The position numbers were made by a program, and so were the translations under genes. The notes under the pieces were generated by a model. The model did not search any database. It was not told the DNA's origin and saw nothing but the letters and a program-made list of their open reading frames with translations. Shown here piece by piece: positions 16,795 to 40,161 of a stretch of DNA of 56,311 bases. The DNA is from Nanobdellota archaeon (lineage in GTDB: Archaea > Nanobdellota > Nanobdellia > Woesearchaeales > GW2011-AR4): assembly GCA_038046185.1 (NCBI GenBank), contig JBBSWR010000219.1, positions 1 through 56,311 on the forward strand. Direction: 5' to 3'. The first letter of the stretch is position 1, and each line of letters opens with the position of its first letter.

Positions 16795-16881
16795 TATCGT
16801 GTTTTTATTAGGAATGGATTTAAAGATGGTGAAATATAAAAATAAGTATAATTTATTAAATCAGATCAAAAATAGAGACAA

Positions 16882-22022: not shown

Positions 22023-23171
22023 GTGGAAAAAACAGATTGGAAGATACCATTATACAAAATTTTTACGGATGAAGAAGATCTTAATTTAATTACAAAAATT
22101 ATTAAACGTGGGAATAATTGGGCATTAGGTCCAGAGATAGAAGAATTTGAAAGTGAAATCAAAAATTATCTAGGAATGGATTATTGCCTAACATTAAATT
22201 CTGGAACATCTGCATTACACGCATCTTACTTAGCCTACAACATAAAAGAAGACGACGAAGTAATTGTACCATCATTCACTTTTATTTCTACAGCAAATTC
22301 AGTATTATTTGTCAAAGCAAAACCAGTTTTTACAGATATTGAAGAAGAAACATTTGGTTTGGATCCAAATCAAGTTAAGAAACACATCAATACAAAAACA
22401 AAAGCAATTGTACCAGTACATTATGGAGGAAACCCATGTAAAATTCTAGATTTAATGAAGATTGCAGTAGAAAACAAATTAATTCTCATTGAAGATGCTG
22501 CAGAATCGTTAGGATCTTCAGTAAATAATCAAAAATTGGGAAGTGTTGGAAATGCAGCAATTTTTAGTTTTTGTGGAAATAAAGTGTTAACGACTGGAGA
22601 AGGCGGAGCGGTAGTAACTAATTCAAAAGAAATTTATGAAAAAATTAAATTCATAAGATCTCATGGAAGAATAGATAAAATAAATTATTTTAACAATCCT
22701 GATGAGCCAGAATACAACACAATTGGATATAATTGGAGAATGTCTACCATTACAGCATCATTAGGAATAACCCAGATTAAAAAACTTGATAAAATTATTA
22801 AGATGAGACAGGAGAATGCAGAGTATATTTCTTCTAGACTATCAAAAATTCAATACATTAAAACACCAAAACCACTATCTGGAAATACTCATATTTATCA
22901 AATGTACACTATCAGACTATCAGATAAAAAATACAGAGATGGATTACATGAATTTTTGACTAAGAAACAAATTTTTTCAAAAGTTTATTTTAATCCGATA
23001 CATTTAACGAATTTTTATAGAAATATGTTAAAAACTAAAGAAGGGATGCTGCCAATTACAGAGAAGATATCAAAGGAGGTTCTTACAATTCCATTATATC
23101 CTAATATGACGAATGAAGAAAAAAACTATTTAGTTGAATCTATTATAGAATTTTTTGAATTAGTCAAATAA
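22023..23171 (+). CDS. DegT/DnrJ/EryC1/StrS-family PLP-dependent sugar aminotransferase
   Basis: GTG start. LNSGTSALHASYLA, IEDAAESLGS, and FSFCGNKVLTTGEGGAV with the PLP lysine. Confidence 0.85.
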   Translation: MEKTDWKIPLYKIFTDEEDLNLITKIIKRGNNWALGPEIEEFESEIKNYLGMDYCLTLNSGTSALHASYLAYNIKEDDEVIVPSFTFISTANSVLFVKAKPVFTDIEEETFGLDPNQVKKHINTKTKAIVPVHYGGNPCKILDLMKIAVENKLILIEDAAESLGSSVNNQKLGSVGNAAIFSFCGNKVLTTGEGGAVVTNSKEIYEKIKFIRSHGRIDKINYFNNPDEPEYNTIGYNWRMSTITASLGITQIKKLDKIIKMRQENAEYISSRLSKIQYIKTPKPLSGNTHIYQMYTIRLSDKKYRDGLHEFLTKKQIFSKVYFNPIHLTNFYRNMLKTKEGMLPITEKISKEVLTIPLYPNMTNEEKNYLVESIIEFFELVK

Positions 23172-23183
23172 AATATTAAAAAT

Positions 23184-24044
23184 TTATTTAATAATCCACA
23201 TGTTATCTGTTTCAATAGCAGATTTCTTTTCAATATCACTTATTAAAATTTCAGTTAGTTTTTCTCCTTTACGGCTTCCTATAATTCTATGATTTTTTGA
23301 AACCTCATTTGCAAGATCTTTTATGTCAAATAAATTCATTTTTGGAACAAAAATTTCACCACCCTTTGAAAGAGAAACACATTGCAATATGAAATCTACC
23401 GCCTCATCGACATGAAAAAAGTATCTTTTCATTTTACTGTCGGTTATAGATAAAGGGATACTCGCCTGAGCTTGTTCTTTCCAGATCTCAAAAACATTAC
23501 CTCGAGTCTCAATGACGTTTCCAAATCTAATGGTAGAGAATTTTATAGAATCAATGTGTGTAGATGCCCAACTTACTAATCTTTCACCTATTTGTTTGGT
23601 ACTACCATACAATGTAGTAGGATCAACTGCTTTATCAGTACTAATGTTAAAGAATTTTACAGGTTTATTTTTCATTGTCATTTTTATCATATTTATGGTT
23701 CCGGTGATATTAGTTTCAATAGTTTCAAATGGATTGAATTCTGAAATTTCAATATTTTTTACTGCAGCTGTATGAAAAACAACATCTACGTTAGTTCCCG
23801 CTATTTCAATTCTACTTAGATCACAAATATTACCTAAAAGTAATCTGAGTCTGGAATCATTTATTGAATGACTCAACTGAAATAAAGCATGCTCATTAAT
23901 GTCTAAAACACGCACTGCACGTACAGGATATTCTAGTAGTTTTTTTGTAAGAACTGAACCAACGCTTCCAGCTCCTCCAGTGATAAGAATGGTTTTATTT
24001 CTTAATTCCTTGATTAGAGGGTCATTTTTTTTCATTACAGTCAA
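23184..24044 (-). CDS. CapD/PseB/LegB-like nucleotide-HexNAc 4,6-dehydratase (short form)
   Basis: ILITGGAGSVGSVLTKKLL; STDKAVDPTTLYGSTKQIGERL has the Tyr-Lys catalytic pair retained; 286 aa. Confidence 0.75.
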   Translation of the reverse strand: MTVMKKNDPLIKELRNKTILITGGAGSVGSVLTKKLLEYPVRAVRVLDINEHALFQLSHSINDSRLRLLLGNICDLSRIEIAGTNVDVVFHTAAVKNIEISEFNPFETIETNITGTINMIKMTMKNKPVKFFNISTDKAVDPTTLYGSTKQIGERLVSWASTHIDSIKFSTIRFGNVIETRGNVFEIWKEQAQASIPLSITDSKMKRYFFHVDEAVDFILQCVSLSKGGEIFVPKMNLFDIKDLANEVSKNHRIIGSRKGEKLTEILISDIEKKSAIETDNMWIIK

Positions 24045-24127
24045 TCTATGCCTCTATTTATTGTGCTTTTCTTAATTTAAACCAGTAATTTAAAACTAAT
24101 ATCATAGTATTATGACGATAAATTGTT

Positions 24128-25114
24128 TTGTTGATTTTAATTGTAGGTTATGGTTCAATCGGAAAACGCCATATTGAGAATCTATCCACATTACCAAATA
24201 TTGAAATTTTGGTATATACCAAAAGAAAATACGATAATTTTTTGAAAGAAAGAAAATGCAAAAAAATTGATTCATTAGATGAGTGTTTAAAAATTAAACC
24301 GGATGCTGCAATAATATGTAATCCAACAAATTTGCATATCAAAATCGCATTAAGATTAGCTAAAGCACATATTCATATTTTTATTGAAAAACCTTTATCA
24401 AATTCTTTCAGTGGTATAAATAATCTTCAAAAAATTGTTAAAACAAATAGATTAATTACACATGTAGGTTGTGTCATGCGTTTTCATCCTTGTTTAAAAG
24501 AAATTAAGGATATTTTAGATACAAAACAATTGGGAAGAATTATGTCAGTACAAGTAGAAAATGGTTCTTTCTTACCTGATTGGCATCAATATGAAAATTA
24601 TAAGAAGAGTTATGCTGCAAGAAAGGATTTAGGTGGAGGTGTGATACTTACTTGCATTCATGAAATAGATTATCTATATTGGTTTTTTGATAAAGTTAGT
24701 GAAGTAAATTCATTTTTAGGTAAAATGAGTGATTTAGATATAGAAGTAGAAGATTTAGCTTCTGTGTTACTAAAATTTAAGACAAATATAATAGCAGAGA
24801 TACATTTGGATTATTTTCAAAAGCCATCAGAAAGAGGAGGTAAAATTATTGGAACAAAAGGTAAATTGGTTTGGGATTTTGAGACAAATTCAGTTAAAAT
24901 TTACGATAACAGTAAAAACAGATGGAGTGAAAGATTGAAACTAAGTAAGTTTGACAAGAATAAAATGTATTTAGATGAAATAACATATTTTTTAAACCGT
25001 ATAAAAAATAAAAGAGAAAGTTTCAACAATATTAGTAAAAGTTCAAAAGTATTAGAAATTGCCATTGCAATTAAAAAATCAGACAGATGTAAAAAGGTGG
25101 TAAAAATATCATGA
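24128..25114 (+). CDS. Gfo/Idh/MocA-family oxidoreductase
   Basis: TTG start. LILIVGYGSIGKRH Rossmann motif, FIEKPLS (EKP motif), GGGVILTCIHEIDYLYWFF C-terminal domain motif. Confidence 0.8.
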   Translation: MLILIVGYGSIGKRHIENLSTLPNIEILVYTKRKYDNFLKERKCKKIDSLDECLKIKPDAAIICNPTNLHIKIALRLAKAHIHIFIEKPLSNSFSGINNLQKIVKTNRLITHVGCVMRFHPCLKEIKDILDTKQLGRIMSVQVENGSFLPDWHQYENYKKSYAARKDLGGGVILTCIHEIDYLYWFFDKVSEVNSFLGKMSDLDIEVEDLASVLLKFKTNIIAEIHLDYFQKPSERGGKIIGTKGKLVWDFETNSVKIYDNSKNRWSERLKLSKFDKNKMYLDEITYFLNRIKNKRESFNNISKSSKVLEIAIAIKKSDRCKKVVKIS

Positions 25115-25932
25115 AAGAAAATAAATCCATTTTTGAAATTTTTAGTTTAAAAGGAAAGACAATAATTCTTACAGGTTCTGCTGGAAGGGTTGGAAGTAGA
25201 TTTGCTAATGTATTAAGTCAAGCAGGAGCAAATTTAGTATTAGTTGACCAAGATAAGATAAAGAACGAAGAATTAGCTAATGAAATAGTTAAAAAATACA
25301 AAACAAAGTGTAATGCATATCATGCAGATTTTTCAAATCAATTGGATGTTTCAAATCTAGTCAAATATACTATAAAGAAATATGGAAAGATAGATGTTTT
25401 AATAAATAATGCTCATTTTATTCCTAGAGAAGATCCTAATTTGTCTTCTACTTTTGAGGAATATTCATTAGAACTTTGGAATAAAACTGTCGATATAAAT
25501 TTACGAGGATTGTTTCTATGTTGTCAAAAGGTAGGAAAGATAATGATTAAACAAAAAAGTGGAGTTATCATTAATGTCTCTTCCATTTATGGAATGGTAG
25601 GAGCAGATCAAAGAATTTACGGTAAAAGTAAATTGAATTCTCCATCATTTTATGCTGCAACAAAGGGTGCAATGGTAAACCTTACCCGTTATTTAGCAGC
25701 ATATTGGCAAGGAAAAAATATTCGCGTTAATACAATAACACTGGGTGGAATTTTTGATAAAAAATTACATACTGACAAAACTTTTGTAAAAAAATATTCT
25801 GAACGAACTATTCTTGGAAGAATGGCAACAAGAGAGGATTTTGATGGAGCAATTTTATTTTTAACATCTGATGCATCATCCTATATGACAGGTGCAAATT
25901 TAGTAGTAGATGGTGGTTGGACAACATGGTAA
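25111..25932 (+). CDS. Classical short-chain dehydrogenase/reductase (SDR)
   Basis: TGSAGRVGSRFA, NNAH, YAATKGAM (YxxxK) and a C-terminal GANLVVDGGWT motif. AGGTGG Shine-Dalgarno-like element about 12 nt upstream; 4-nt overlap with the previous gene. Confidence 0.85.
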   Translation: MKENKSIFEIFSLKGKTIILTGSAGRVGSRFANVLSQAGANLVLVDQDKIKNEELANEIVKKYKTKCNAYHADFSNQLDVSNLVKYTIKKYGKIDVLINNAHFIPREDPNLSSTFEEYSLELWNKTVDINLRGLFLCCQKVGKIMIKQKSGVIINVSSIYGMVGADQRIYGKSKLNSPSFYAATKGAMVNLTRYLAAYWQGKNIRVNTITLGGIFDKKLHTDKTFVKKYSERTILGRMATREDFDGAILFLTSDASSYMTGANLVVDGGWTTW

Positions 25933-25951
25933 TTAATTTGTGTAATATCGG

Positions 25952-26668
25952 TTAGATTTTGATTTTTTTAGTTGCAATCATGTTAGCTATCTGAAATTCA
26001 AATTCGGTGTCAATCATAACCCCACGTTCAGGTGGAATTTCAAATGGCAGTGCTTTAGGCATATAAAATACCCTATATTTCATAAATTGTTTGACATTTA
26101 AAACAAAAAGACCATTTAATTGATAAACAATTGGAGCATCCTGTCGATTTTGAGGTTTTTTGTTCAGATGCTTACTGAATCTCAGGAATCCAAGTTTGTT
26201 AATTTCCATCATGTTAAAGTATGGATTATGATGTTGTCGATAAACAGCACAAACAAGATCACAGTGTGTTTTTTGAAATAAAGATAGTGCTCCAAGAATG
26301 TCAGATTTATTGATGAAAGGCACAGTACAATCTCTATTTACAAGTGAATCAAAATTATATCCCATCTTTGTTAGTTTCACAATAGCATGTTCTATTACAT
26401 CGGTCATACTTGATGCATCAGTGGCAAAATTACTGGGACGTTTAAACGGAATTTCTGCACCAAATTCTTTAGCAATTTTTGCTATTGTGTCATCTTCTGT
26501 AGAGACCACCACATGTTCAAAAATGTGTGAATCAATTGCTGTTTCGATACAATGAGCTATCAAAGGTTTTTTTCCTAGCATACGAATATTTTTGTTTGGA
26601 ACTCCTTTTGATCCTCCTCTTGCGGCTATCAAGCATATTGATTTGTTAAGATAATTGTTCATGGTCAA
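25952..26668 (-). CDS. CMP-nonulosonic acid synthetase (acylneuraminate cytidylyltransferase, NeuA/LegF/PseF family)
   Basis: CLIAARGGSKGVPNKNIRMLGKKPLIAH matches the family N-terminal signature; 238 aa. Confidence 0.85.
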   Translation of the reverse strand: MTMNNYLNKSICLIAARGGSKGVPNKNIRMLGKKPLIAHCIETAIDSHIFEHVVVSTEDDTIAKIAKEFGAEIPFKRPSNFATDASSMTDVIEHAIVKLTKMGYNFDSLVNRDCTVPFINKSDILGALSLFQKTHCDLVCAVYRQHHNPYFNMMEINKLGFLRFSKHLNKKPQNRQDAPIVYQLNGLFVLNVKQFMKYRVFYMPKALPFEIPPERGVMIDTEFEFQIANMIATKKIKI

Positions 26669-27362
26669 CTCTTTTTCTAGTAGAGGATAATTTTGCTGCT
26701 TTCATAATATCTTTTAGATCATCATAATCAAAACTGACATTATTATCCACAAAATCCTTATTTTTATCAGAAGTAATATGAATTTCAAGAACTTCTATTC
26801 CTTCTTTAATTGCAGAAATTGGGCCTTCGACTTCATTACAGTGATTTGAAAATCCATCAAAATATTTTAGTTTAGTAAAATCAATTTCATTCAATTTGCA
26901 CGGATATTTAGGTACACAGTATAACCATTTGATATTAGGATCATTGTAAAACTTACAAGATGTGGGAATAGTTTCAGAGCTAATGTAGATAGGTTTATTT
27001 TTTTTATAAATTAAATTGAATAGATCAGAAGAAAAGTTATTTACAATTGATCGACCGTCAAATTCTCGAATTTTATATCTATGTACATAAGGTTCTAGCA
27101 TATCAATTGCTTCAACATACATTGGAGTAGAAAACCATTCAATTCCTATTTCTTGAGAGATTTGATGAATTTTATCCACATTTTGTTTATTTATAGAAGA
27201 ACGAATTAATCTATTAGATTCGGGGTGACTCTTTATCATATCAAGTGTAAATGATTGGAATTTTACTGCATTTAAGCCAAGCATTTTTGATTGATGCATC
27301 ATTTCTCGAGCTATTTCAAAATCTCCATCCCAGTTTACACCTATCTCTCCAATGACAAACAT
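26646..27362 (-). CDS. Short, divergent NeuB-family nonulosonic acid synthase-like protein (TIM-barrel part only, no SAF domain)
   Basis: The ORF track gives 26646..27446, but homology starts at MFVIGEIGVNWDGDFEIAREMM...AVKFQSF (ATG 27360-27362; alternative ATG 27384-27386). WFSTPMY, KPIYISS, GFSNHC and EIHIT are colinear with the NeuB FLSTPFD, KPxILSTG, SDH and EKHFT blocks. Confidence 0.65.
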   Translation of the reverse strand: MFVIGEIGVNWDGDFEIAREMMHQSKMLGLNAVKFQSFTLDMIKSHPESNRLIRSSINKQNVDKIHQISQEIGIEWFSTPMYVEAIDMLEPYVHRYKIREFDGRSIVNNFSSDLFNLIYKKNKPIYISSETIPTSCKFYNDPNIKWLYCVPKYPCKLNEIDFTKLKYFDGFSNHCNEVEGPISAIKEGIEVLEIHITSDKNKDFVDNNVSFDYDDLKDIMKAAKLSSTRKRVDHEQLS

Positions 27363-27417
27363 GAAATGAATTTGTAAAGTTATCATATTAAATATTTGTA
27401 ATAAACAAGATAAACAA

Positions 27418-28470: not shown

Positions 28471-28508
28471 CAACAAACTTTTAGTGAGCAGTAATTAATG
28501 AAATAGTA

Positions 28509-29438
28509 TTGAATAAAGCAAAAATCATAATGTATCATTATGTACGTCCAATTAAGGAAAGTGAGTTTTCTCAAATAAAGGGATTGGAAGTCGTAGGATT
28601 TCAAAGGCAGATCACATTCTTTGAAAATAATTTTGAAATTGCAGGAGTAGATTTTTTATTAAATTCAATGAATTTACAAAAAAATGAAAATAAAGAACGC
28701 GTGATTCTTACATTTGATGACGGGTTAAAAGATCATTACAATCATGTATTTCCAATTTTAAAAGATAAAGGCATACAAGGTTTATTTTTTCCGCCCGCAA
28801 AACCAATCATAGAAAATATTGTTCTAGATGTACACAAAATTCATTTTATTTTAGCAACAGTCAAAGATAAATCAGTATTAGTAAAAGATGTGTTTGATAA
28901 AATTAAAGAGCATCAATCAGAATATGAAGTAGATGAGCCTCAGAATTTATGGAAAAAATTAGCAATTCCAAATAGATTTGATTCTGCTGAGATCATTTTT
29001 GTAAAACGTATACTGCAAAGAGAATTACCACAGGATATGAGGAAAACTATTGCAAAAGAATTATTTGAAAAATATGTTTCAAATGATGAAAGGGATTTTT
29101 CTAAACAATTGTACTTGTCATTTGATGAAATAGATGAAATGAGAGAGCATGGAATGTATTTTAGTTCTCATGGGTATTCACATGAATGGTTATCATATTT
29201 ATCCTATAAAATGCTAGAAAATGAGATAAAAAATAGCATCATTTTTTGTAAAAGAATTAATCCAGATAATGAACAAATTATGTGTTATCCATATGGGAAT
29301 TTTGATTTAAGAGTAATTGAAAAAATTAAAGAATTTAATTTTCAAGCTGGACTTACAACAGAAGTTGGGGACGCTGAATTAGATGAGAGTAATCGATTCA
29401 AACTAAAAAGATATGATACAAATGATTTTCCTCAATAA
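28509..29438 (+). CDS. Polysaccharide deacetylase (CE4 / NodB homology domain)
   Basis: ILTFDDGLKDHY (TFDDG motif 1), SSHGYSHEW (HxxxH motif 2), and IMYHYVRP N-terminus. Confidence 0.75.
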   Translation: MNKAKIIMYHYVRPIKESEFSQIKGLEVVGFQRQITFFENNFEIAGVDFLLNSMNLQKNENKERVILTFDDGLKDHYNHVFPILKDKGIQGLFFPPAKPIIENIVLDVHKIHFILATVKDKSVLVKDVFDKIKEHQSEYEVDEPQNLWKKLAIPNRFDSAEIIFVKRILQRELPQDMRKTIAKELFEKYVSNDERDFSKQLYLSFDEIDEMREHGMYFSSHGYSHEWLSYLSYKMLENEIKNSIIFCKRINPDNEQIMCYPYGNFDLRVIEKIKEFNFQAGLTTEVGDAELDESNRFKLKRYDTNDFPQ

Positions 29439-29448
29439 ATATAATTAG

Positions 29449-30303
29449 ATGCTGTGGTTGGAACAGATCATGATACTAAATAATGAACAAATTGAGTTTT
29501 ATAAAAATAATGGGTATTTAATTTTGGATAATTTTTTCTCTACAACTGAATTAGCAGAGTTTAGAAATGCACTCACTCATATTGTTAAAGTGAATTTGGA
29601 AAAAGCTGCAAAAATACATCAAGAATTAACACCAGCAGATTTTATTGGAAAAGAATTAGACGAAGGAATAATCAGATTAGAAGAAATTGATCATCAACAT
29701 GTTGCAAATGTGTACGATACGATTTTTCAAACACCACAATTTCTAAGAATTACTGCAAAAAAGGAAATTGGGCAATGCATTAACCAGTTACTTTCAAGAG
29801 AAATAGATAGTCCTACATACATTGATCAGAGCCGATGTAGAATTGATCCTCCTCTAGATCCAAATGAAAGAACATGCGGTTGGCATCAAGAAGTTTTTTA
29901 TTATGTTCCAAAAAGTAATTTTTTACAAACATGGGCGCCATTAATTCATAATGCAACAAAAGAAAATGGTACAGTTGAAGTATGTCCAGGCAGTCATAAT
30001 GAAGGAATTGCAAAACAATCAAACATAGAAGAAGATGTATTATACAAATTCATAGTCGATGATGCAGTAATTAGAAAATACAAACCCATATCAGTAGAAA
30101 TGAAATTGGGCCAATTATTAATATTCGATTTTAAATTAATTCATAAATCAGGAAAGAATACTTCTAAACAAGTGAGATATTCTCTGGTGGGCATAAATCA
30201 TAATCTTGATAACGAGTATTTCATACCACCAAGATTAATAGTCGAGAAAAAAGAAGAGAAAATGAAGGAATATTACTCGAAAGTATTTAAAAAAGAAAAA
30301 TAA
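29449..30303 (+). CDS. Phytanoyl-CoA dioxygenase (PhyH)-family Fe(II)/2-oxoglutarate oxygenase
   Basis: EQIEFYKNNGYLILDNFF N-terminus, GWHQE (HxD/E facial triad) and IHKSGKNTSKQVRYSL (distal His plus Arg). The true start is probably ATG 29470 (MILNNEQ). Confidence 0.7.
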   Translation: MLWLEQIMILNNEQIEFYKNNGYLILDNFFSTTELAEFRNALTHIVKVNLEKAAKIHQELTPADFIGKELDEGIIRLEEIDHQHVANVYDTIFQTPQFLRITAKKEIGQCINQLLSREIDSPTYIDQSRCRIDPPLDPNERTCGWHQEVFYYVPKSNFLQTWAPLIHNATKENGTVEVCPGSHNEGIAKQSNIEEDVLYKFIVDDAVIRKYKPISVEMKLGQLLIFDFKLIHKSGKNTSKQVRYSLVGINHNLDNEYFIPPRLIVEKKEEKMKEYYSKVFKKEK

Positions 30304-30338
30304 GAAACATGAATCAAAATAACACAAATAATTAAAAT

Positions 30339-31904
30339 ATGAAAAAAACAGATTCTATTTTTGTATTAAAAATTAATTCAGTGTTAAAAGAAAATATTCA
30401 AGAAATCATCAAATTTGAAATAAAGAGGATAGAGTATCACTTTTCTAAATCAATTCATATATGGGATCCTGATAATATCTTACAAAATATCCTAGAATAT
30501 TCTTCAATCAAAAGTTCAACAGAAGCAGAATTAAATAATTTTTTAAAATCTAAAAGAGATCAAGTGTTTTTTTTCATAGAATCAATAAATCCATTTTTAG
30601 ATGATAAATTTGTAAAACAATTAACTCTGGAAAATATACGAGGAGTATCATCAATAGAAAATGCAATTCCAGGTACTTGTCCCACATTTATAATACAATA
30701 CAAGAGTTTAATGGAAAAAATAGCTAAAAAAAATTGGTGGTCTACATTAAAATCAAATAATATACTATATTGGAATACACAAAGACAAAATAATAATCAA
30801 TTTAATCTAAATCGTCCATTAAGAATAAAAATTTTCTTGGGTTTATTGAAAAAAATATCAAATCTTGAGAAGATGTCTTTAGAAAAAATTTTAAAAATAT
30901 TAGATAGTAATGAAATATATAATTTTATTTTAGATTATGCAGTAACAGGACTACATACAAAAGAGATCAGAAAATGTCCACATTGCAAAAGCAATGAATT
31001 AACAAAATTGTTTTTGACAACTAGTCAACCTATGATTGGTTTTCTTTCATCAAAAAAACCGTTATACTATGAATGCAGAAACTGTGGTCTAGTAACACTA
31101 AGAAAACAATGTGCTATGAAAGATGTACATTTACTTTACGATGAATTTGAAAGACCTAAAAATGATGAAAGACAACTAATAGAAAATTATTTAAAAAATA
31201 AAGGCGAATCTCATTTTAAAGAAAAAATACGGGCGCTAGAATTACTTGAGAAAACAGCACCTAAAAAAACATGTATGATAGATCTTGGAGGCGGATTTGG
31301 TGAGTTTTCAAGTATGGCAAAAAAAAGAAACCTGAAGTGGGATGTAACATGTGCAGATTTTAATTTGGATCATGTGAAGAAAATCCTTCATGAGAAAAAA
31401 GTTTCTGTTATGAATGTCAATTTTCTACAAAATAGTTTTGGCAAAAATTATGATGTGATTACTTCATTACATGTAATAGAACATATTCCGTTTGAAGGAC
31501 TAGAATTGTATCTAAATAATATTCATAGTGCATTAAATGATAATGGATATTTTCTATTGTCTACACCTGATTATAATTCATCTTTGGGAAGAATGTTTGA
31601 TTATCATATGATGTATCCGCCACATCATCAGACAATTCTTTCAAGTCAATGGATTACAGAATATCTTCTAAAGAAAAAATTATTTAAAAAGATAGAGCAG
31701 ACATCAGCTTGTGTAATATTAGAAAATTATGATGATTGGTTTTCATATTATAAAGAAACTGCACCAACACAAGAATCAAAAGCAGTTGTAAAAATTTTTG
31801 ATGTAATATATAAGAATAAAAAAATGTTTAAGGAGTTAGAAAATACCCTAAGTGAAAAAAATAAAGGTTCAGAAACAATAATTCTTTTTAAAAAAATATC
31901 TTAA
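30339..31904 (+). CDS. Fusion protein: unassigned about 200-aa N-terminal region + Cys4 Zn-ribbon + class I SAM-dependent methyltransferase
   Basis: CPHCKSNEL...CRNCGLV ribbon, MIDLGGGFGEFS SAM motif I, YDVITSLHVIEHI motif. I recognise nothing in the N-terminal 200 aa. Confidence 0.65.
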   Translation: MKKTDSIFVLKINSVLKENIQEIIKFEIKRIEYHFSKSIHIWDPDNILQNILEYSSIKSSTEAELNNFLKSKRDQVFFFIESINPFLDDKFVKQLTLENIRGVSSIENAIPGTCPTFIIQYKSLMEKIAKKNWWSTLKSNNILYWNTQRQNNNQFNLNRPLRIKIFLGLLKKISNLEKMSLEKILKILDSNEIYNFILDYAVTGLHTKEIRKCPHCKSNELTKLFLTTSQPMIGFLSSKKPLYYECRNCGLVTLRKQCAMKDVHLLYDEFERPKNDERQLIENYLKNKGESHFKEKIRALELLEKTAPKKTCMIDLGGGFGEFSSMAKKRNLKWDVTCADFNLDHVKKILHEKKVSVMNVNFLQNSFGKNYDVITSLHVIEHIPFEGLELYLNNIHSALNDNGYFLLSTPDYNSSLGRMFDYHMMYPPHHQTILSSQWITEYLLKKKLFKKIEQTSACVILENYDDWFSYYKETAPTQESKAVVKIFDVIYKNKKMFKELENTLSEKNKGSETIILFKKIS

Positions 31905-31942
31905 ACATATGAGATTAAATACATCAACAGGCATGAAATATC

Positions 31943-33064
31943 ATGAGATATTGCTCAAAATGCTTAATGCCTGATACTAGACCAGGAATAAGATTTGTTG
32001 ACGGAGTATGTGTTGCATGCATACATTATGAAAAAAGCAAAAATACAGATTGGGTAAAAAGAATGAACGAGTTTAAACAATTATGTGATAAACATAGAAA
32101 CAGTAATGGTGATAATTATGATTGCGCAATAGCAGTTTCAGGTGGAAAAGACTCTCATTTCCAGGTTCATTATATGAAAGAAGTGATGAAAATGAATCCA
32201 CTTCTTTTATCAGTTGGAAATATTGATTGGACAGATACTGGTAGAAAAAATTTAGAGAATATATCAGAAGTATTTGGGTGTGATGTGATAATGTTACATC
32301 CTAATAGAAAAATTGCAAAAAAAATGTTCAAAAAAGCTTTTGAGAAATTAGGTTCACCATCATGGTATCTAGATTATCAAATGTATTCATTTCCGGTTAG
32401 AATGTGCATAAAATTAGGATTAAAACTTCTGGTTTACGGAGAAGATGTCAATTATACTTATGGTGGAAAATATGATGAAGAAACACCATCAGCAATGTTA
32501 CAGCCACTTAATGACGTATCCAAACCAGTTTGGAAAGAATGGTTTGAAGATGGAGAAATTAATGAAAAAGATATGAATTCAATAATACAACCAACATTAG
32601 AAGAATGTAAAGCAGTAGGATTAGAACCAATTTATTTAAGCTATTTTGTTCCTTGGAATTCTCATCATAATTTTCAGGTTGCTCAGAAATTAGGATTTAG
32701 GCATTTAGGTCATGAGCATGAGAGAGAAGGATCAATTGACAATTATGATCAAATAGATTCAATCAGCTATTTGTTAAATCCTTATATGAAATATCTAAAG
32801 TTTGGGCATGCGGTAGCAACAGACAATGCATCAAGATGGATAAGATATGGAATGAAAACTCGTGAAGAGATGATCCCAATTGTGGAAGAGAAAGATGGTA
32901 AACTAGATCAAGACATTGTTGAAAAATTTTGTGAATTTATAGGTCTTAGCGTAGTAGAATTTTGGAAAATTATGGATAAATGGTATAACAAAGAACTATT
33001 TGAACAAGATAGAGATGGAATTTGGCACCCTAAATTTAGGGTTGGTACTGGATTAATCAAATAA
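31943..33064 (+). CDS. N-acetyl sugar amidotransferase (PP-loop ATPase; WbuX/WbpG/PseA/PtmG family)
   Basis: MRYCSKCLMPDTRPGIRFVDGVCVACIHY N-terminal Zn-ribbon plus AVSGGKDS PP-loop motif. Confidence 0.8.
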   Translation: MRYCSKCLMPDTRPGIRFVDGVCVACIHYEKSKNTDWVKRMNEFKQLCDKHRNSNGDNYDCAIAVSGGKDSHFQVHYMKEVMKMNPLLLSVGNIDWTDTGRKNLENISEVFGCDVIMLHPNRKIAKKMFKKAFEKLGSPSWYLDYQMYSFPVRMCIKLGLKLLVYGEDVNYTYGGKYDEETPSAMLQPLNDVSKPVWKEWFEDGEINEKDMNSIIQPTLEECKAVGLEPIYLSYFVPWNSHHNFQVAQKLGFRHLGHEHEREGSIDNYDQIDSISYLLNPYMKYLKFGHAVATDNASRWIRYGMKTREEMIPIVEEKDGKLDQDIVEKFCEFIGLSVVEFWKIMDKWYNKELFEQDRDGIWHPKFRVGTGLIK

Positions 33065-33072
33065 TCATATTT

Positions 33073-34218
33073 ATGAAAAAAATAAAGATTATAGTCTCTA
33101 CTGGGACAAGAGCTGATTATGGAATCTTAAGATCCTTGTTAAAAAAAATTAGTCAAAGTAGAAAATTTCAATTAATTTTAATTGTGACAGGCTCACATTT
33201 ATCTAGAAATCATGGAAATACTATTGAAGAAATTAGAAAAGATGGATTTAAAATAAGTGCAAAAATAAACATAGTTCCAAAAAAAGATGATGGTTTTAAC
33301 ACTTCAATGTCAATAGGTAAAGGAGTTATTGAGTTTTCCAAATGCTTTAAAAAATTACAGCCAGATTTGAATATAATAATTGGAGATAGGTATGAAATGC
33401 TATCTTCTGCAATAGCGGCATATCATCAAAATATACCAAATGTGCATATTCATGGTGGAGATAAATCAGGAGGATTGGACGAATATACGAGACATGCCAT
33501 AACTAAAATATCAAATATTCATTTTGCTGCAACAAAAAAGAGTGCAACTAGGATTAAAAAAATGGGTGAAAATCCAAAATATATCATTCAAACAGGTTCA
33601 TTAAGCATAGATGAAGTCATTGAAAATAAGATATCAAGTTTAGAAGAATTAAATTTAAAATATGATTTGAATTTAACAGGAAATGAAATTATAGTTCTTC
33701 AGCATCCAGATACAACAGAGCCAGATAAAAGCAAAGAACAAATGCTTTCTACGTTAAGAGCAGTAATCAAAACAAAACATAATGCAATAATTATTGGACC
33801 AAATATAGATACAGGTAATAATTCCATAAATAAAATAATACAAAAATTTACAAAGTATAATTCAATAAAGTTTTTTAGATCATTACCAAGAGAAGATTAT
33901 TTGGGTTTGCTGAAGAATTGTAAAGTGTTAGTAGGGAATTCTAGTAGTGGAATTATAGAATCATCACTTTTTAAAATTCCAGTCATAAACATAGGAGATA
34001 GGCAAAAAGGACGAGAGAGAGGACCAAATGTGATGGATGTTACAAGATTTTCTCAAAAATTAATTTCTACTGCACTTAAAAAAGCTCTTTTGATGCAAAA
34101 GTCAACTCTTAGAATTAGACATGTGTATGGAAATGGCTTAGCTGCAAAAAAGATCATTCAGTATTTAGAGAAAATAAATATCGATCATAAACTACTTAAG
34201 AAAGAGATTACATATTGA
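33073..34218 (+). CDS. Hydrolysing nucleotide-HexNAc 2-epimerase (NeuC/LegG family)
   Basis: KIIVSTGTRADYGILRSLL, IGDRYEMLSSAIAA, HIHGGD and GNSSSGIIES motifs, typical of NeuC-type epimerases. Confidence 0.8.
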   Translation: MKKIKIIVSTGTRADYGILRSLLKKISQSRKFQLILIVTGSHLSRNHGNTIEEIRKDGFKISAKINIVPKKDDGFNTSMSIGKGVIEFSKCFKKLQPDLNIIIGDRYEMLSSAIAAYHQNIPNVHIHGGDKSGGLDEYTRHAITKISNIHFAATKKSATRIKKMGENPKYIIQTGSLSIDEVIENKISSLEELNLKYDLNLTGNEIIVLQHPDTTEPDKSKEQMLSTLRAVIKTKHNAIIIGPNIDTGNNSINKIIQKFTKYNSIKFFRSLPREDYLGLLKNCKVLVGNSSSGIIESSLFKIPVINIGDRQKGRERGPNVMDVTRFSQKLISTALKKALLMQKSTLRIRHVYGNGLAAKKIIQYLEKINIDHKLLKKEITY

Positions 34219-34227
34219 GGATAAAAA

Positions 34228-34644
34228 TTGACTAAAGATAATTGGAAAAAACCAATCATAAAACACGCAAAACTTACAAAATATAACTATATTGTACAAT
34301 ATCCAGAAAATCTAAAGATGGGTAGAAATTTTGATATTGGTTCATTTACCTACATCAATAGTCAATATGGTGTAGAAATTGGAGATTATGTTCAAATTGG
34401 CTCTCATTGTTCAATCTATTCTAATTCAACCATAGATAAAAAAAATGGTCCAGTAATTCTAAAAAGAAATTGTAAAATTGGGACACATAGTACTATAATG
34501 CCAAATGTCGCTATTGGAGAAAATTCGATTATAGCTGCATATTCATTTGTAAATAGAAATGTATCTGATAATGAAATTTGGGGAGGAGTCCCTGTAAGAT
34601 TTTTAAAGAAAATTTCAAAAAAAGATCTTATTCAAGACAATTAA
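34228..34644 (+). CDS. Left-handed beta-helix (hexapeptide-repeat) acetyltransferase
   Basis: TTG start. Repeated [LIV]-G-x4 hexapeptide pattern (VEIGDYVQIGSHCSIY...CKIGTHSTIMPNVAIGENSIIAA); 138 aa. Confidence 0.75.
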   Translation: MTKDNWKKPIIKHAKLTKYNYIVQYPENLKMGRNFDIGSFTYINSQYGVEIGDYVQIGSHCSIYSNSTIDKKNGPVILKRNCKIGTHSTIMPNVAIGENSIIAAYSFVNRNVSDNEIWGGVPVRFLKKISKKDLIQDN

Positions 34645-37725: not shown

Positions 37726-37745
37726 AGTTATCTATGTTTTATGGA

Positions 37746-38758: not shown

Positions 38759-38759
38759 T

Positions 38760-40022: not shown

Positions 40023-40038
40023 TATATTGATGTTTGAT

Positions 40039-40060: not shown

Positions 40061-40161
40061 TTTTAATTAAAGAGGGAGATTAATATAAAAATAAATATTT
40101 CAAAAACTAATCCTACAGTTAATTAAATAGTTTATTAACTTTATAGATAGCTCTTATCTTT

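What the first reader, a model, noticed from the sequence alone, without database searches (positions are those of the whole stretch)
22023..34644. Complete-looking nonulosonic acid (legionaminic/pseudaminic-type) pathway in a probable archaeon
Within 12.6 kb the following are all present: a PseB/LegB-like 4,6-dehydratase (23184..24044), a DegT aminotransferase (22023..23171), an LbH N-acetyltransferase (34228..34644), a NeuC/LegG-type hydrolysing 2-epimerase (33073..34218), a NeuB-like condensing enzyme (26646..27362) and a NeuA-type CMP-transferase (25952..26668). A dehydratase plus an aminotransferase points to a 5,7-diamino-3,5,7,9-tetradeoxy-nonulosonate rather than Neu5Ac. A Gfo/Idh/MocA gene and an SDR pair (24128..25932) sit in the middle. 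NulOs are documented in only a few archaea, so the pathway and its stereochemistry here would be new.
Basis: partly seen in the sequence, partly recalled or inferred. Interest (0 to 1): 0.65.

Follow-up and report, generated by a model that had tools for sequence, protein, structure and literature searches.

The report
Nonulosonic acid gene cluster in Nitrosopumilaceae
An ammonia-oxidising archaeon carries an intact, widely conserved gene cluster for a sialic-acid-like nine-carbon sugar (legionaminic/pseudaminic class), probably heavily modified; such clusters were already predicted for these archaea, but the sugar has never been shown chemically.

Summary
The host is an archaeon of the Nitrosopumilaceae: a flanking core gene is 95% identical to one from Nitrosarchaeum. 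The synthase, the NeuC-type hydrolysing 2-epimerase, the LbH acyltransferase, the aminotransferase, the short dehydratase and a CMP-transferase recur together in about 14-17 other Nitrosopumilales genomes, so this is not chance.

- **Pathway logic.** It is legionaminic-like. A NeuC/LegG-type epimerase is present and no PseG hit was found. A Gfo/SDR/CMP-transferase triad matches bacterial PtmF/PtmA/LegF (ElaA/C/B). A WbuX amidotransferase and a methyltransferase are also present.
- **What argues against a simple assignment.** The dehydratase is FlaA1/PseB-like (SYK motif), so the stereochemistry at C7/C8 cannot be called.
- **Departures from the canonical enzymes.** The synthase is a 238-246 aa NeuB barrel with no SAF domain. 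The LbH protein lacks the PglD/NeuD N-domain. Only NeuC and WbuX pass the curated equivalog cut-offs.
Five tailoring genes lie inside the cluster: a double-GNAT acyltransferase, a deacetylase, a PhyH dioxygenase, a methyltransferase and WbuX.

Novelty is modest. NulO genes in ammonia-oxidising archaea were noted in 2013 and 2016, and no product has been shown. I rate it a new member of a known kind.

The parts
20671..21951 (+). Candidate CMP-NulO glycosyltransferase (GT-B/TagB-like, 426 aa). The assignment is weak.
   Evidence: Pfam hits are Glyphos_transf (31 bits, above the gathering score of 22) and the C-terminal half of Epimerase_2. It hits NF046086 'BFO_1060 family glycosyltransferase' at E 6e-7, far below that model's cut-off, and TIGR04396 at E 2e-7. 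BFO_1060 is the Tannerella forsythia Leg-derivative transferase (PMC5420450). An 'HP' motif is present. Homologues flank the cluster in L002, L005 and L009.
22023..23171 (+). PLP-dependent sugar C4 aminotransferase (DegT family, 382 aa).
   Evidence: PF01041 scores 367 bits over the full length. PseC scores 289 bits (cut-off 423) and LegC family 271 bits (cut-off 420), so the subtype is unresolved. PDB matches do not discriminate either: PseC 166 bits, PglE 157 bits. Orthologues at 51-71% identity are linked to the synthase in 14 loci.
23184..24044 (-). Short (286 aa) UDP-GlcNAc 4,6-dehydratase of the FlaA1/PseB-like (SYK) type.
   Evidence: PF02719 scores 242 bits. PseB scores 227 bits (cut-off 408) and LegB only 51 bits. 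The best PDB match is FlaA1/PseB 2GN4 at 188 bits, ahead of Pen 6BWC (157) and PglF (about 136-140). The motif is STDKAVDPTTLYGSTK. The protein ends about 45 residues before the end of the PseB model, and this length is conserved in the orthologues. These are 60-67% identical and sit in the cluster in 9 loci.
24128..25114 (+). Gfo/Idh/MocA oxidoreductase, PtmF/ElaA-like.
   Evidence: Pfam hits are PF01408, PF22725 and PF02894. It is 30% identical over 96% of its length to the Gfo gene of a Sulfitobacter plasmid operon ordered NTP-transferase / Gfo / acylneuraminate cytidylyltransferase / SDR. It is 36% identical to a Gfo gene in a Halorussus NulO cluster. In archaeal loci it co-occurs with the SDR and with this type of CMP-transferase.
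25111..25932 (+). Classical SDR oxidoreductase, PtmA/ElaC-like. It overlaps the Gfo gene by 4 nt.
   Evidence: adh_short_C2 scores 178 bits. The best NCBIfam model is PRK09186 at 190 bits (cut-off 255), and FlagModPtmA scores 134 bits (cut-off 350). It is 33% identical to the SDR of the Sulfitobacter operon.
25952..26668 (-). CMP-nonulosonate synthetase (cytidylyltransferase).
   Evidence: PF02348 scores 82 bits. PseF scores 147.5 bits (cut-off 206). PDB CMP-Neu5Ac synthetases score 82-92 bits. It is 30% identical to the cytidylyltransferase of the Sulfitobacter operon.
26646..27386 (-). SAF-less NeuB-family nonulosonate synthase. It is 246 aa from 27386 or 238 aa from 27362, and overlaps the CMP-transferase gene by 23 nt.
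   Evidence: PF03102 scores 77 bits. NeuB scores 91 bits and PseI 76 bits, both far below their cut-offs. There is no SAF domain and no space for a separate one. The conserved motifs (AEIG, KFQ, KIR, SS, YP, SNH, E-x-H, D) line up with those of PseI and of the Leptospira NeuB in the printed profile alignment. I equate them with the metal and PEP ligands of N. meningitidis NeuB from memory. The AF2 model has pLDDT 95. Its best fold matches are 6NCS, PseI and NmNeuB, with TM-scores (normalised to the query) of 0.74-0.81.
27418..28470 (+). Tandem (double) GNAT-fold N-acyltransferase, 350 aa, from a family found almost only in these archaea.
   Evidence: Pfam finds a GNAT domain only in the N-terminal 100 residues. 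There is no PDB match by sequence. Only 35 homologues turn up among 5.8 billion proteins, and the one that carries an organism name is from Ca. Nitrosotenuis. The AF2 model has pLDDT 92, and its best fold matches are the two-GNAT N-myristoyltransferases, with TM-scores around 0.57.
28509..29438 (+). Polysaccharide/N-acetyl-sugar deacetylase (CE4-type).
   Evidence: PF01522 scores 67 bits. Orthologues at 51-56% identity occur in L004, L016 and L017.
29449..30303 (+). PhyH-family Fe(II)/2-oxoglutarate dioxygenase.
   Evidence: PF05721 scores 72 bits. An orthologue at 59% identity lies in the Nitrosotenuis cluster L017.
30339..31904 (+). SAM-dependent methyltransferase, 521 aa. The methyltransferase domain is at residues 297-436 and the N-terminal part is unassigned.
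   Evidence: PF13489 scores 58 bits and PF08242 42 bits.
31943..33064 (+). N-acetyl-sugar amidotransferase (WbuX family), which makes acetamidino groups.
   Evidence: TIGR03573 scores 310 bits against a cut-off of 203, a pass. Orthologues at 56-73% identity occur in seven related loci (L005, L006, L009, L010, L015, L017 and, weakly, L014).
33073..34218 (+). Hydrolysing NDP-sugar 2-epimerase (NeuC/LegG type).
   Evidence: TIGR03568 scores 411 bits against a cut-off of 236, a pass. wecB scores only 86 bits. The best PDB match is the GDP/UDP-diNAcBac hydrolysing 2-epimerase 5XVS at 237 bits, ahead of human GNE at 188 bits.
34228..34644 (+). Minimal left-handed beta-helix acyltransferase, 138 aa. 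It is the presumed sugar 4-N-acetyltransferase.
   Evidence: Hexapep scores 53 bits. The NeuD/PglB/VioB model matches only at its C-terminal positions 116-202 (60 bits, cut-off 161). The best PDB matches are 3VBI-3VBP at about 49 bits. It is 70-77% identical and adjacent to NeuC in most related loci.

Best explanation
The region is a biosynthetic cluster of a Nitrosopumilaceae ammonia-oxidising archaeon. It makes a CMP-activated 5,7-diamino-3,5,7,9-tetradeoxynon-2-ulosonic acid, most likely for a surface (S-layer) glycan.

**Proposed route.** All steps are inferred from homology. None has been shown biochemically.
1. The short FlaA1-type dehydratase (23184-24044) converts UDP-GlcNAc to the UDP-4-keto-6-deoxy sugar.
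2. The DegT aminotransferase (22023-23171) aminates C4.
3. The minimal LbH acyltransferase (34228-34644) N-acetylates the new amine.
4. The NeuC/LegG-type enzyme (33073-34218) removes the nucleotide and inverts C2.
5. The SAF-less NeuB-family synthase (26646-27386) condenses the free 2,4-diacetamido-2,4,6-trideoxyhexose with PEP.
6. The cytidylyltransferase (25952-26668) makes the CMP-sugar.
7. The Gfo/SDR pair (24128-25932) oxidises and re-reduces one hydroxyl of the CMP-sugar. By analogy with ElaA/ElaC of Acinetobacter this would be C8.
8. Tailoring follows: WbuX with the methyltransferase gives an (N-methyl)acetamidino group, the deacetylase with the double-GNAT exchanges an N-acyl group, and PhyH hydroxylates.
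9. The GT-B protein at 20671-21951 may transfer the sugar.

**Logic and stereochemistry.** The logic is legionaminic-type, using a 2-epimerising hydrolase and no PseG. The configuration at C7/C8 is open because the dehydratase resembles the 5-inverting PseB. The options are:
- a retaining dehydratase, giving Leg (8-epi-Leg after the triad acts);
- inverting with equatorial amination, giving 8-epi-Leg;
- inverting with PseC-like amination, giving the acinetaminic (5-epi-Pse) series.
For: - **Family assignments.** Every gene has a Pfam or NCBIfam assignment, and NeuC and WbuX pass the curated equivalog cut-offs.
- **Synthase.** Its conserved motifs align with those of PseI and Leptospira NeuB, and a high-confidence model gives a NeuB-type TIM barrel.
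- **Epimerase.** The closest solved relative is the diNAcBac hydrolysing 2-epimerase LegG.
- **Synteny.** The synthase is linked with NeuC in 14 of 18 loci, with DegT at 50% identity or more in 14 of 18, with the LbH protein (70% identity or more) in 11 of 18, with the short dehydratase in 9, and with a CMP-transferase, all in Nitrosopumilales genomes.
- **Triad.** The Gfo/SDR/CMP-transferase trio is co-inherited. The window-type CMP-transferase (about 60% identity or more) occurs only where the SDR is present (5 of 5 loci), and the SDR is absent from the other loci. All three genes are homologous, at 30%, 33% and 30% identity, to a bacterial operon ordered NTP-transferase / Gfo / cytidylyltransferase / SDR.
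- **Literature parallels.** The trio matches PtmF/PtmA/LegF of Leg clusters (PMC4481668). It also matches ElaA/ElaC/ElaB, which are proposed to epimerise CMP-Leg5,7Ac2 at C8 (PMC13656337).
- **No PseG or PseH.** No ORF of 110 aa or more in the window gave a Glyco_tran_28_C hit with Pfam, and NCBIfam gave no PseG or PseH hit among the 29 ORFs scanned, which include the whole cluster.
- **Single synthase.** There is no second NeuB or SAF ORF in the window (same calls).
Against: - Four of the six core enzymes score below their equivalog cut-offs.
- The synthase lacks the SAF domain. From my own knowledge of N. meningitidis NeuB, that domain supplies Arg314, which is essential for catalysis. No SAF-less NeuB has a demonstrated activity that I could find.
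- The LbH protein lacks the N-terminal nucleotide-sugar-binding domain of PglD/NeuD, and its nearest solved relatives include O-acetyltransferases. It could therefore be an O-acetyltransferase.
- The dehydratase is nearer to PseB than to PglF or LegB, which does not fit a plain Leg route.
- The role of PtmA/PtmF-type proteins is disputed. In the Campylobacter scheme (Schoenhofen 2009, as described in PMC4481668) PtmA belongs to the first segment of the pathway, the synthesis of the GDP-GlcNAc precursor.
- No NulO has been detected chemically in any ammonia-oxidising archaeon. The one glycoproteomic study found none in N. viennensis and no N-glycans in Np. piranensis (PMC12153357). Neither species appeared among the genomes carrying the synthase.
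Confidence: 0.7

Rival explanations
1. A true sialic acid (Neu5Ac-type) pathway. NeuC, the NeuB-like synthase, the NeuA-like transferase and a NeuD-like O-acetyltransferase would make CMP-Neu5Ac from UDP-GlcNAc. The dehydratase and aminotransferase would serve a separate di-N-acetyl-bacillosamine-like sugar of the same glycan.
For: NeuC passes the NeuC_NnaA equivalog cut-off. The synthase's best NCBIfam model is NeuB_NnaB, at 91 bits against 76 for PseI. The LbH protein hits the NeuD family and O-acetyltransferases. The CMP-transferase's best solved relatives are CMP-Neu5Ac synthetases.
Against: The DegT gene and the short dehydratase are adjacent to, and co-inherited with, the synthase across Nitrosopumilales. 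NeuC is closer to LegG (237 bits) than to GNE (188 bits). The synthase profile scores PseI at 78 bits against N. meningitidis NeuB at 31 bits. The PtmF/PtmA/LegF-like triad and WbuX accompany di-amino NulOs.
Confidence: 0.1
2. A genuine pseudaminic acid (L-glycero-L-manno) pathway of the PseB/C/H/G/I/F type. The GNAT protein would act as PseH and an unrecognised hydrolase would replace PseG.
For: The dehydratase's best match is PseB/FlaA1 and it has the SYK motif. PseC is marginally the best aminotransferase model and PseF the best cytidylyltransferase model. A GNAT gene is present.
Against: There is no PseG or PseH hit among the cluster ORFs. The GNAT protein is a 350-aa double-GNAT with no sequence match in the PDB. 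A Pse route does not explain the strictly conserved NeuC-type 2-epimerase and LbH pair. All Pse models score below their cut-offs.
Confidence: 0.07
3. A mosaic sugar island without a NulO end product. The SAF-less NeuB-like barrel would make a different 3-deoxy-2-ulosonic acid, or be inactive. The neighbouring genes would feed other unusual sugars of the 56-kb glycosylation island.
For: The whole window is a dense island with at least three other nucleotide-sugar pathways. The synthase lacks the SAF domain and scores far below the equivalog cut-offs. SAF-less NeuB-like proteins are a large family whose activity has not, to my knowledge, been tested: about 100 clusters at 50% identity score E<1e-30, and nearly all full-length members are 215-265 aa.
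Against: The conserved NeuB motifs are invariant across the family. The gene overlaps a CMP-transferase gene by 23 nt. The synteny with NeuC, DegT and the dehydratase holds despite gene-order shuffling between genomes.
Confidence: 0.1

Closest known systems
Legionaminic acid clusters of Campylobacter jejuni, Vibrio and Plesiomonas (legB/C/H/G/I/F with ptmA, ptmF, ptmG, ptmH)
   Same: It has a hydrolysing 2-epimerase (LegG-like), an LbH acyltransferase, a NeuB-family synthase and a CMP-transferase. The CMP-transferase is flanked by a Gfo/Idh/MocA oxidoreductase (PtmF-like) and an SDR (PtmA-like). A WbuX-family amidotransferase and a methyltransferase are also present; from my own knowledge these correspond to PtmG and PtmH, which make Leg5Am7Ac and Leg5AmNMe7Ac.
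   Different: There is no LegB-type (RmlB-like) dehydratase: TIGR04180 scores only 51 bits. There is no PtmE guanylyltransferase, so a UDP-linked rather than GDP-linked route is likely. The dehydratase is FlaA1/PseB-like. The synthase has no SAF domain. The acyltransferase lacks the PglD/LegH N-domain. Identities to the bacterial enzymes are about 30%.
Acinetobacter baumannii KL49 8-epi-legionaminic acid module ElaA/ElaB/ElaC (PMC13656337)
   Same: It is a three-gene unit: a Gfo/Idh/MocA oxidoreductase, a dedicated CMP-transferase and an SDR. In the archaeal loci the three genes are gained or lost together, as in the lga versus ela versions of the Acinetobacter K loci.
   Different: I could not compare directly with the ElaABC sequences, and they did not appear in the PDB copy. 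The homology was shown only through a Sulfitobacter plasmid operon with the same architecture. The C8-epimerase activity is a proposal even in Acinetobacter.
Pseudaminic acid pathway (PseB/C/H/G/I/F) of Helicobacter and Campylobacter
   Same: The dehydratase is most similar to FlaA1/PseB and shares its SYK motif. The synthase profile scores PseI above N. meningitidis NeuB.
   Different: No PseG and no PseH-type GNAT were found. A NeuC-type 2-epimerase, which the Pse route does not use, is strictly conserved in the cluster.
Leptospira borgpetersenii 290-aa 'sialic acid synthetase' (PDB 6NCS)
   Same: It is the best sequence and fold match of the archaeal synthase (83 bits; Foldseek E 2e-15). 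It is also a NeuB barrel too short to carry a SAF domain.
   Different: Identity is only about 22%. It is a structural-genomics entry for which I found no assigned substrate.
NulO gene sets previously predicted in archaea (Kandiba & Eichler 2013; Nitrosotalea devanaterra, PMC4836417; Halorussus plasmid cluster L021)
   Same: These are archaeal hosts with NeuB, NeuA, aminotransferase and dehydratase homologues in surface-glycosylation islands. In each case the proposed target is the S-layer.
   Different: I could not read the 2013 paper, so I do not know whether this SAF-less cluster type is the one it described. The Halorussus cluster has a full-length 'N-acetylneuraminate synthase family' gene of about 350 aa.

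Membership tests
Legionaminic-type NulO pathway (LegB/C/H/G/I/F logic) | A hydrolysing NDP-sugar 2-epimerase of the NeuC/LegG family | tested here: met
   TIGR03568 scores 411 bits against a cut-off of 236, while wecB scores 86 bits against a cut-off of 210. The best solved relative is the diNAcBac hydrolysing 2-epimerase 5XVS at 237 bits.
Legionaminic-type NulO pathway (LegB/C/H/G/I/F logic) | A configuration-retaining NDP-GlcNAc 4,6-dehydratase (LegB or PglF type) | tested here: not met
   LegB model TIGR04180 scores only 51 bits against a cut-off of 475. PglF structures score lower (about 136-140 bits) than PseB/FlaA1 (188 bits). The SYK motif is that of FlaA1, not the SMK motif of PglF/WbpM. 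Retention or inversion at C5 itself cannot be read from the sequence.
Legionaminic-type NulO pathway (LegB/C/H/G/I/F logic) | A C4 aminotransferase of LegC/PglE stereospecificity | tested here: inconclusive
   The DegT family is certain at 367 bits. LegC scores 271 and PseC 289, both below their cut-offs. PDB PseC scores 166 and PglE 157.
Legionaminic-type NulO pathway (LegB/C/H/G/I/F logic) | An LbH 4-N-acetyltransferase of the PglD/LegH/NeuD type, with the N-terminal sugar-nucleotide domain | tested here: not met
   The protein is 138 aa and only the C-terminal LbH part of TIGR03570 matches (model positions 116-202; 60 bits against a cut-off of 161). An LbH acyltransferase is present, but not of the PglD architecture.
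Legionaminic-type NulO pathway (LegB/C/H/G/I/F logic) | A product with D-glycero-D-galacto configuration | not testable with these tools
   This needs chemical analysis such as NMR or co-chromatography.
NeuB/PseI/LegI nonulosonate synthases | A NeuB TIM-barrel domain with the conserved metal- and PEP-binding motifs | tested here: met
   PF03102 scores 77 bits against a gathering score of 22. Family-invariant residues include E, K-F-Q, K, S, Y-P, S-N-H, E-x-H and D. The AF2 model has pLDDT 95 and TM-scores of 0.74-0.81 (query-normalised) to NeuB and PseI structures. Mapping these motifs onto the NmNeuB ligands rests on my own knowledge.
NeuB/PseI/LegI nonulosonate synthases | A C-terminal SAF (antifreeze-like) domain, and a score above the equivalog cut-off | tested here: not met
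   The protein is 238-246 aa and ends after the barrel. There is no SAF hit anywhere in the window. NeuB scores 91 bits (cut-off 400) and PseI 76 bits (cut-off 340).
Pseudaminic acid pathway (PseB/C/H/G/I/F) | A PseG UDP-sugar hydrolase and a PseH GNAT N-acetyltransferase | tested here: not met
   No ORF of 110 aa or more in the window gave a Glyco_tran_28_C hit with Pfam. NCBIfam gave no PseG or PseH hit among the 29 ORFs scanned, which include every ORF from 17882 to 38417. The only GNAT protein is a 350-aa double-GNAT.
Pseudaminic acid pathway (PseB/C/H/G/I/F) | A PseB 5-inverting 4,6-dehydratase | tested here: inconclusive
   PseB is the best model and the best solved relative, and the SYK motif matches. 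However, the score is 227 bits against a cut-off of 408, and the last 45 or so positions of the model are missing.
PtmF/LegF/PtmA = ElaA/ElaB/ElaC module | A Gfo/Idh/MocA oxidoreductase, a dedicated CMP-NulO synthetase and an SDR encoded together in a NulO cluster | tested here: met
   The three genes are adjacent at 24128-26668. They are 30%, 30% and 33% identical to the corresponding genes of a Sulfitobacter operon. In Nitrosopumilales the three are present or absent together.
PtmF/LegF/PtmA = ElaA/ElaB/ElaC module | Oxidation and re-reduction at C8 of the CMP-sugar | not testable with these tools
   This is only proposed, from structures and mutants in A. baumannii (PMC13656337).
WbuX/PseA/PtmG N-acetyl-sugar amidotransferases | A score above the curated subfamily cut-off | tested here: met
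   TIGR03573 scores 310.5 bits against a cut-off of 203.2, over model positions 1-344 of 344.

The most novel reading that the evidence does not exclude
Marine and freshwater ammonia-oxidising archaea use a streamlined hybrid route. It combines a FlaA1-type 5-inverting dehydratase, a NeuC-type 2-epimerising hydrolase and a SAF-less synthase. The product would be a NulO stereoisomer or derivative not yet described in archaea: the 8-epi-Leg or acinetaminic series, carrying amidino, N-methyl or exchanged-acyl groups. This acidic, nitrogen-rich sugar would cap the chemically unsolved S-layer N-glycans and add to the negative surface charge that concentrates ammonium. It would differ between strains as a phage-evasion trait.
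Probability: 0.15. Interest if true: 0.7.

Novelty: new member of a known kind. Interest (0 to 1): 0.35.

Why it matters
Ammonia-oxidising archaea are among the most abundant cells in the ocean. Their S-layer is thought to capture ammonium through negative charge. It carries 17 N-glycans per subunit, and the chemistry of these glycans is unknown (PMC11153153).

A carboxylated, possibly amidinated nine-carbon sugar at the glycan tips would change how surface charge, nitrogen budget and phage recognition are modelled for these organisms. The cluster also offers a compact enzyme set for testing two things. One is how NulO synthases work without the SAF domain. The other is what the widespread Gfo/SDR/CMP-transferase triad does.

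The cluster itself is not a surprise. It is a variant of a well-known pathway, and it was already predicted for this group.

Tried and rejected
- **Subtyping the aminotransferase.** I tried NCBIfam equivalog scores and solved structures. PseC, LegC and PglE all score alike, so there is no discrimination.
- **ElaA/B/C in the PDB copy.** I looked for them to compare directly with the window's triad. No such entries came up: the best Gfo match is 62 bits to an unrelated dehydrogenase, and the best SDR match is 6UH2. I used a Sulfitobacter plasmid operon as a proxy instead.
- **A second synthase or a separate SAF-domain ORF.** I scanned all window ORFs of 110 aa or more with Pfam and found none. 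The gaps between cluster genes are 84 nt or less.
- **The second Polysacc_synt_2 gene (16882-17889) as the true PseB.** I rejected this. It has the SMK motif. It sits with a WecB-type non-hydrolysing epimerase and an RmlD-like reductase, an FnlABC-like set. It is only 32% identical to the NulO-linked dehydratase, and it is the latter whose orthologues travel with the synthase.
- **RNA genes for taxonomy.** Rfam and tRNA scans found none.
- **Kandiba & Eichler 2013.** The paper is not held.
- **A cultivated strain with an intact cluster.** The only cultivated hit, Ca. Nitrosotenuis chungbukensis MY2, shows fragmented WbuX, LbH and dehydratase ORFs. N. maritimus and Np. piranensis did not appear among the synthase hits. 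That search needs an exact peptide pattern, so their absence is not proven.

Full report
**1. Observation**

The window has about 29% G+C throughout and rises to 37% only in the last 2 kb. It holds no tRNA or Rfam-detectable RNA genes.

Pfam and NCBIfam assign them as follows.

| Coordinates | Strand | Assignment | Scores |
|---|---|---|---|
| 22023-23171 | + | DegT aminotransferase | PF01041 367 bits; PseC 289/423; LegC 271/420 |
| 23184-24044 | - | Polysacc_synt_2 dehydratase | 242 bits; PseB 227/408; LegB 51/475 |
| 24128-25114 | + | Gfo/Idh/MocA oxidoreductase | Pfam domains present |
| 25111-25932 | + | SDR | PRK09186 190/255; FlagModPtmA 134/350 |
| 25952-26668 | - | CTP_transf_3 cytidylyltransferase | PseF 147.5/206 |
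| 26646-27446 | - | NeuB domain only (maximal ORF) | PF03102 77 bits; NeuB 91/400; PseI 76/340 |
| 33073-34218 | + | NeuC-type hydrolysing 2-epimerase | TIGR03568 411/236, pass |
| 34228-34644 | + | LbH acyltransferase, 138 aa | C-terminal part of the NeuD model only, 60/161 |

Scores are given as bits/curated cut-off.

- a GNAT protein (27418-28470);
- a polysaccharide deacetylase (28509-29438);
- a PhyH dioxygenase (29449-30303);
- a methyltransferase (30339-31904);
- a WbuX N-acetyl-sugar amidotransferase (31943-33064; 310/203, pass).

The genes are tightly packed. Gaps are 84 nt or less. Gfo and SDR overlap by 4 nt, and the synthase and CMP-transferase overlap by 23 nt. The synthase and the seven-gene plus-strand block diverge from an A+T-rich spacer of 31-55 nt.

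**2. Host**

The window matches ENA metagenome contig ERZ1292638 NODE_104 (76.8 kb) over the 21 kb fetched, at 99-100% protein identity. The flanking ThiS-ThiF gene (54585-55925) is 95% identical to proteins named Nitrosarchaeum sp. and Thaumarchaeota archaeon. It is about 90-91% identical to those of Nitrosopumilus sp. K4, Ca. Nitrosarchaeum limnium and N. piranensis. 'Probable archaeon' is therefore correct: this is a Nitrosopumilaceae ammonia oxidiser.

Cluster genes are much more divergent than that core gene. They are at most 67-77% identical to any GTDB species representative. This fits a strain-variable glycosylation island.

**3. More than chance**

The NeuB-like protein has more than 900 homologues of about 230 aa in metagenomes. 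A scan of GTDB species representatives returned 19 loci. All are Nitrosopumilales or Thaumarchaeota, apart from two labelled 'uncultured bacterium' and one labelled only 'uncultured archaeon'.

Eighteen of the loci (L002-L019) carry most of the synthase. Counts of linked genes in those 18 are as follows.

| Gene linked to the synthase | Loci | Identity to the window |
|---|---|---|
| NeuC | 14 | about 49-60% |
| DegT | 14 | 51-71% |
| LbH acyltransferase | 11 | 70-77% |
| Short dehydratase | 9 | 60-67% |
| WbuX | 7 | mostly 56-73% |

Gene order differs between loci but content is kept. That is the signature of one functional unit.

**4. Individual enzymes**

*Synthase.*
- Family-invariant motifs line up with those of PseI and of the Leptospira NeuB in the printed profile alignment. 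I equate them with the metal and PEP ligands of N. meningitidis NeuB from my own knowledge: E of AEIG, K-F-Q, K of KIR, SS, Y-P, S-N-H, E-x-H and D.
- The AF2 model has pLDDT 95. Its best fold matches are the 290-aa Leptospira NeuB (6NCS), PseI (8H2C) and N. meningitidis NeuB, with TM-scores (normalised to the query) of 0.74-0.81. DAHP and KDO8P synthases follow.
- It has no SAF domain, no other ORF supplies one, and there is no second synthase in the window.
- SAF-less NeuB barrels are not confined to these archaea. A profile search of 1.84 billion representatives found 105 clusters at E<=1e-30, and nearly all full-length members are 215-265 aa. Canonical proteins of about 330 aa start to appear from about E 1e-30 and remain a minority of the listed hits.

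*Dehydratase.*
- The best solved relative is FlaA1/PseB at 188 bits, ahead of Pen (157), an FnlA-type enzyme (143), PglF (about 136-140) and CapE (138).
- Its motif is STDKAVDPTTLYGSTK. From my own knowledge of Creuzenet et al. 2002 and the PglF and CapE structural papers, this is the SYK type of FlaA1.
- The window's second family member (16882-17889) has ...AMGMTK, the SMK type, and is only 32% identical. That paralogue sits with a WecB-type non-hydrolysing epimerase (13987-15075; 307/210, pass) and an RmlD-like reductase (13226-13942). This is an FnlABC-like pathway for a 2-acetamido-2,6-dideoxy-L-hexose, separate from the NulO route.

*Epimerase.* The closest solved relative is the GDP/UDP-N,N'-diacetylbacillosamine hydrolysing 2-epimerase (5XVS/5ZLR) at 237 bits. 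Human GNE follows at 188 bits and non-hydrolysing enzymes score 55 bits or less.

*LbH acyltransferase.* Only the beta-helix is present. The best solved relatives are 3VBI-3VBP at about 49 bits. The depositors call these 'galactoside O-acetyltransferase'. I recall them as AntD, a 4-amino-sugar N-acyltransferase, but I could not verify that here.

*Gfo/SDR/CMP-transferase triad.*
- tblastn against plasmids found a Sulfitobacter operon ordered nucleotidyltransferase / Gfo / acylneuraminate cytidylyltransferase / SDR. Its genes are 30%, 30% and 33% identical to the window's three.
- It also found a Halorussus (haloarchaeal) NulO cluster whose Gfo gene is 36% identical.
- This is the PtmE/PtmF/LegF/PtmA arrangement of bacterial Leg clusters (PMC4481668). 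It is also the ElaA/ElaB/ElaC module, proposed to make CMP-Leg5,7Ac2 and epimerise it at C8 (PMC13656337).
- In the archaeal loci the window-type CMP-transferase (about 60% identity or more) occurs only where the SDR is present (L003, L004, L005, L009, L018), and the Gfo gene accompanies them in all but L009. The other loci carry a different CMP-transferase (about 30% identity) and no SDR. At least two cluster variants therefore circulate.

*Tailoring block.*
- WbuX-family enzymes make acetamidino groups. With the methyltransferase this parallels PtmG/PtmH of C. jejuni (my own knowledge).
- The 350-aa GNAT belongs to a tiny family of 35 homologues, and the one carrying an organism name is from Ca. 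Nitrosotenuis. It models confidently as a tandem GNAT fold like the N-myristoyltransferases, with TM-scores around 0.57.
- Together with the deacetylase, this suggests an N-acyl exchange. PhyH suggests a hydroxylation. These are inferences.

*Possible transferase.* ORF 20671-21951 is a GT-B/TagB-like protein. It has weak similarity to the BFO_1060 family, the T. forsythia Leg-derivative transferase.

**5. Mechanism**

The most likely route runs from UDP-GlcNAc through the steps below.
1. 4,6-dehydration.
2. C4 transamination.
3. N-acetylation.
4. Nucleotide hydrolysis with C2 inversion.
5. PEP condensation.
6. CMP activation.
7. Oxidation and re-reduction on the CMP-sugar.
8. Amidino, methyl, acyl and hydroxyl tailoring.
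9. Transfer to a surface glycan.

The presence of NeuC and the absence of any PseG or PseH hit make the logic Leg-like. The FlaA1-like dehydratase leaves C5 of the hexose, which becomes C8 of the NulO, undetermined.

Working through the configurations (my own derivation) gives three outcomes:
- A retaining dehydratase gives a D-manno hexose and hence Leg.
- Inversion with 'gluco' amination gives an L-gulo hexose and hence 8-epi-Leg.
- Inversion with PseC-like amination followed by 2-epimerisation gives an L-allo hexose and hence the acinetaminic (5-epi-Pse) series.

Sequence alone cannot choose among these.

**6. Comparison with the literature and novelty**

- NulO genes in ammonia-oxidising archaea have been noted from genomes. 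'NeuA and NeuB ... in certain NP' cites Kandiba & Eichler 2013 (PMC8397731). [quoted passage not shown]
- No chemical evidence exists in the papers I could search. The 2025 glycoproteome of N. viennensis found a NulO-free hexasaccharide, and no N-glycans in Np. piranensis (PMC12153357).
- The N. maritimus S-layer carries 17 glycans per subunit of unknown chemistry (PMC11153153).

The finding is therefore real and correctly read, but it is a new member of a known kind. Three details could interest specialists: the SAF-less synthase, the minimal LbH protein, and the mix of a PseB-like dehydratase with a NeuC-type epimerase.

**7. Verdict**

| Item | Verdict or value |
|---|---|
| Observation | Confirmed |
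| Interpretation | Supported |
| Novelty claim | Overstated |
| Confidence that the cluster makes a CMP-activated di-amino NulO | about 0.7 |
| Stereochemistry | Open |
| Interest | 0.35 |

Noticed in passing
window 36619-44354: This looks like a complete CDP-hexose pathway, a chemistry best known from enterobacterial O-antigens but here in an archaeon. It has a glucose-1-P cytidylyltransferase (43590-44354; 441/300, pass) and a CDP-glucose 4,6-dehydratase (36619-37725; 422/278, pass). It also has an RfbH-type CDP-6-deoxy-4-hexulose 3-dehydrase (42222-43580; 702/423, pass), a TylC3-like C-methyltransferase (38760-40022) and an SDR (41274-42221). Together these suggest a 3,6-dideoxy and possibly C-methyl-branched hexose.
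   Followed up: partly
window 37746-38758 (-): A Gfo/Idh/MocA gene is split into an N-terminal ORF (38405-38758, 117 aa) and a C-terminal ORF (37746-38417, 223 aa), which overlap by 13 nt. The same split is called on the source contig (L001). It could be a frameshift pseudogene or a real two-ORF arrangement.
   Followed up: no
window 13226-17889: This is an FnlABC-like set. It has an SMK-type Polysacc_synt_2 dehydratase (16882-17889; PseB 344 bits, FnlA 306 bits) and a WecB-type non-hydrolysing 2-epimerase (13987-15075, pass). It also has a short RmlD-like reductase (13226-13942, 238 aa). It probably makes a UDP-2-acetamido-2,6-dideoxy-L-hexose and is separate from the NulO route.
   Followed up: partly
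window 3952-5163, 9359-10588, 38760-40022: There are three paralogous sugar C-methyltransferases (Methyltransf_13/14, with a zinc-binding N-domain) in one 56-kb island. There is also an FkbM methyltransferase at 8351-9271. This is an unusually high density of sugar methylation genes.
   Followed up: no
window 1-56311: Virtually the whole window is a glycosylation island. It holds at least 9 glycosyltransferases (GT2, GT4), two PMT_2 GT-C enzymes (35292-36614, 46561-48528) and a UDP-sugar dehydrogenase (2670-3947). It also holds RmlD-like genes, an LPG_synthase_TM protein (44533-45480) and polytopic membrane proteins with no Pfam hit (15217-16794, 19081-20598, 52852-54129). Core genes resume only from about 51.7 kb: a PGI/PMI, ThiS-ThiF and a PALP enzyme.
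   Followed up: partly
L017 (Ca. Nitrosotenuis chungbukensis MY2, NZ_CP130341.1 292-313 kb): This is the only cultivated organism among the hits. It carries the cluster, including the GNAT/deacetylase/PhyH block. Its WbuX, LbH and dehydratase genes appear as fragments or shortened ORFs, so the genes may be decaying or the sequence may contain errors.
   Followed up: partly
L006 and L010 (Nitrosarchaeum sp. HKST03); L013 and L018 (Nitrosopumilales AM_0615): Two different copies or variants of the synthase-containing cluster sit on separate contigs of the same MAG. This could mean two loci per genome, or strain mixtures within the bin.
   Followed up: no
window 31943-33064: The WbuX-type amidotransferase has no adjacent HisH/HisF-like (WbuY/WbuZ) glutaminase/cyclase partner. 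No such gene was found among the ORFs scanned in the window. The nitrogen donor for the amidino group is therefore unclear.
   Followed up: no
L021 (Halorussus aquaticus plasmid NZ_CP100401.1, 164-183 kb): This haloarchaeal megaplasmid carries a NulO-type cluster. It has a full-length NeuB-family synthase, DegT, two SDRs, a 360-aa GNAT, a methyltransferase and a Gfo gene 36% identical to the window's.
   Followed up: no
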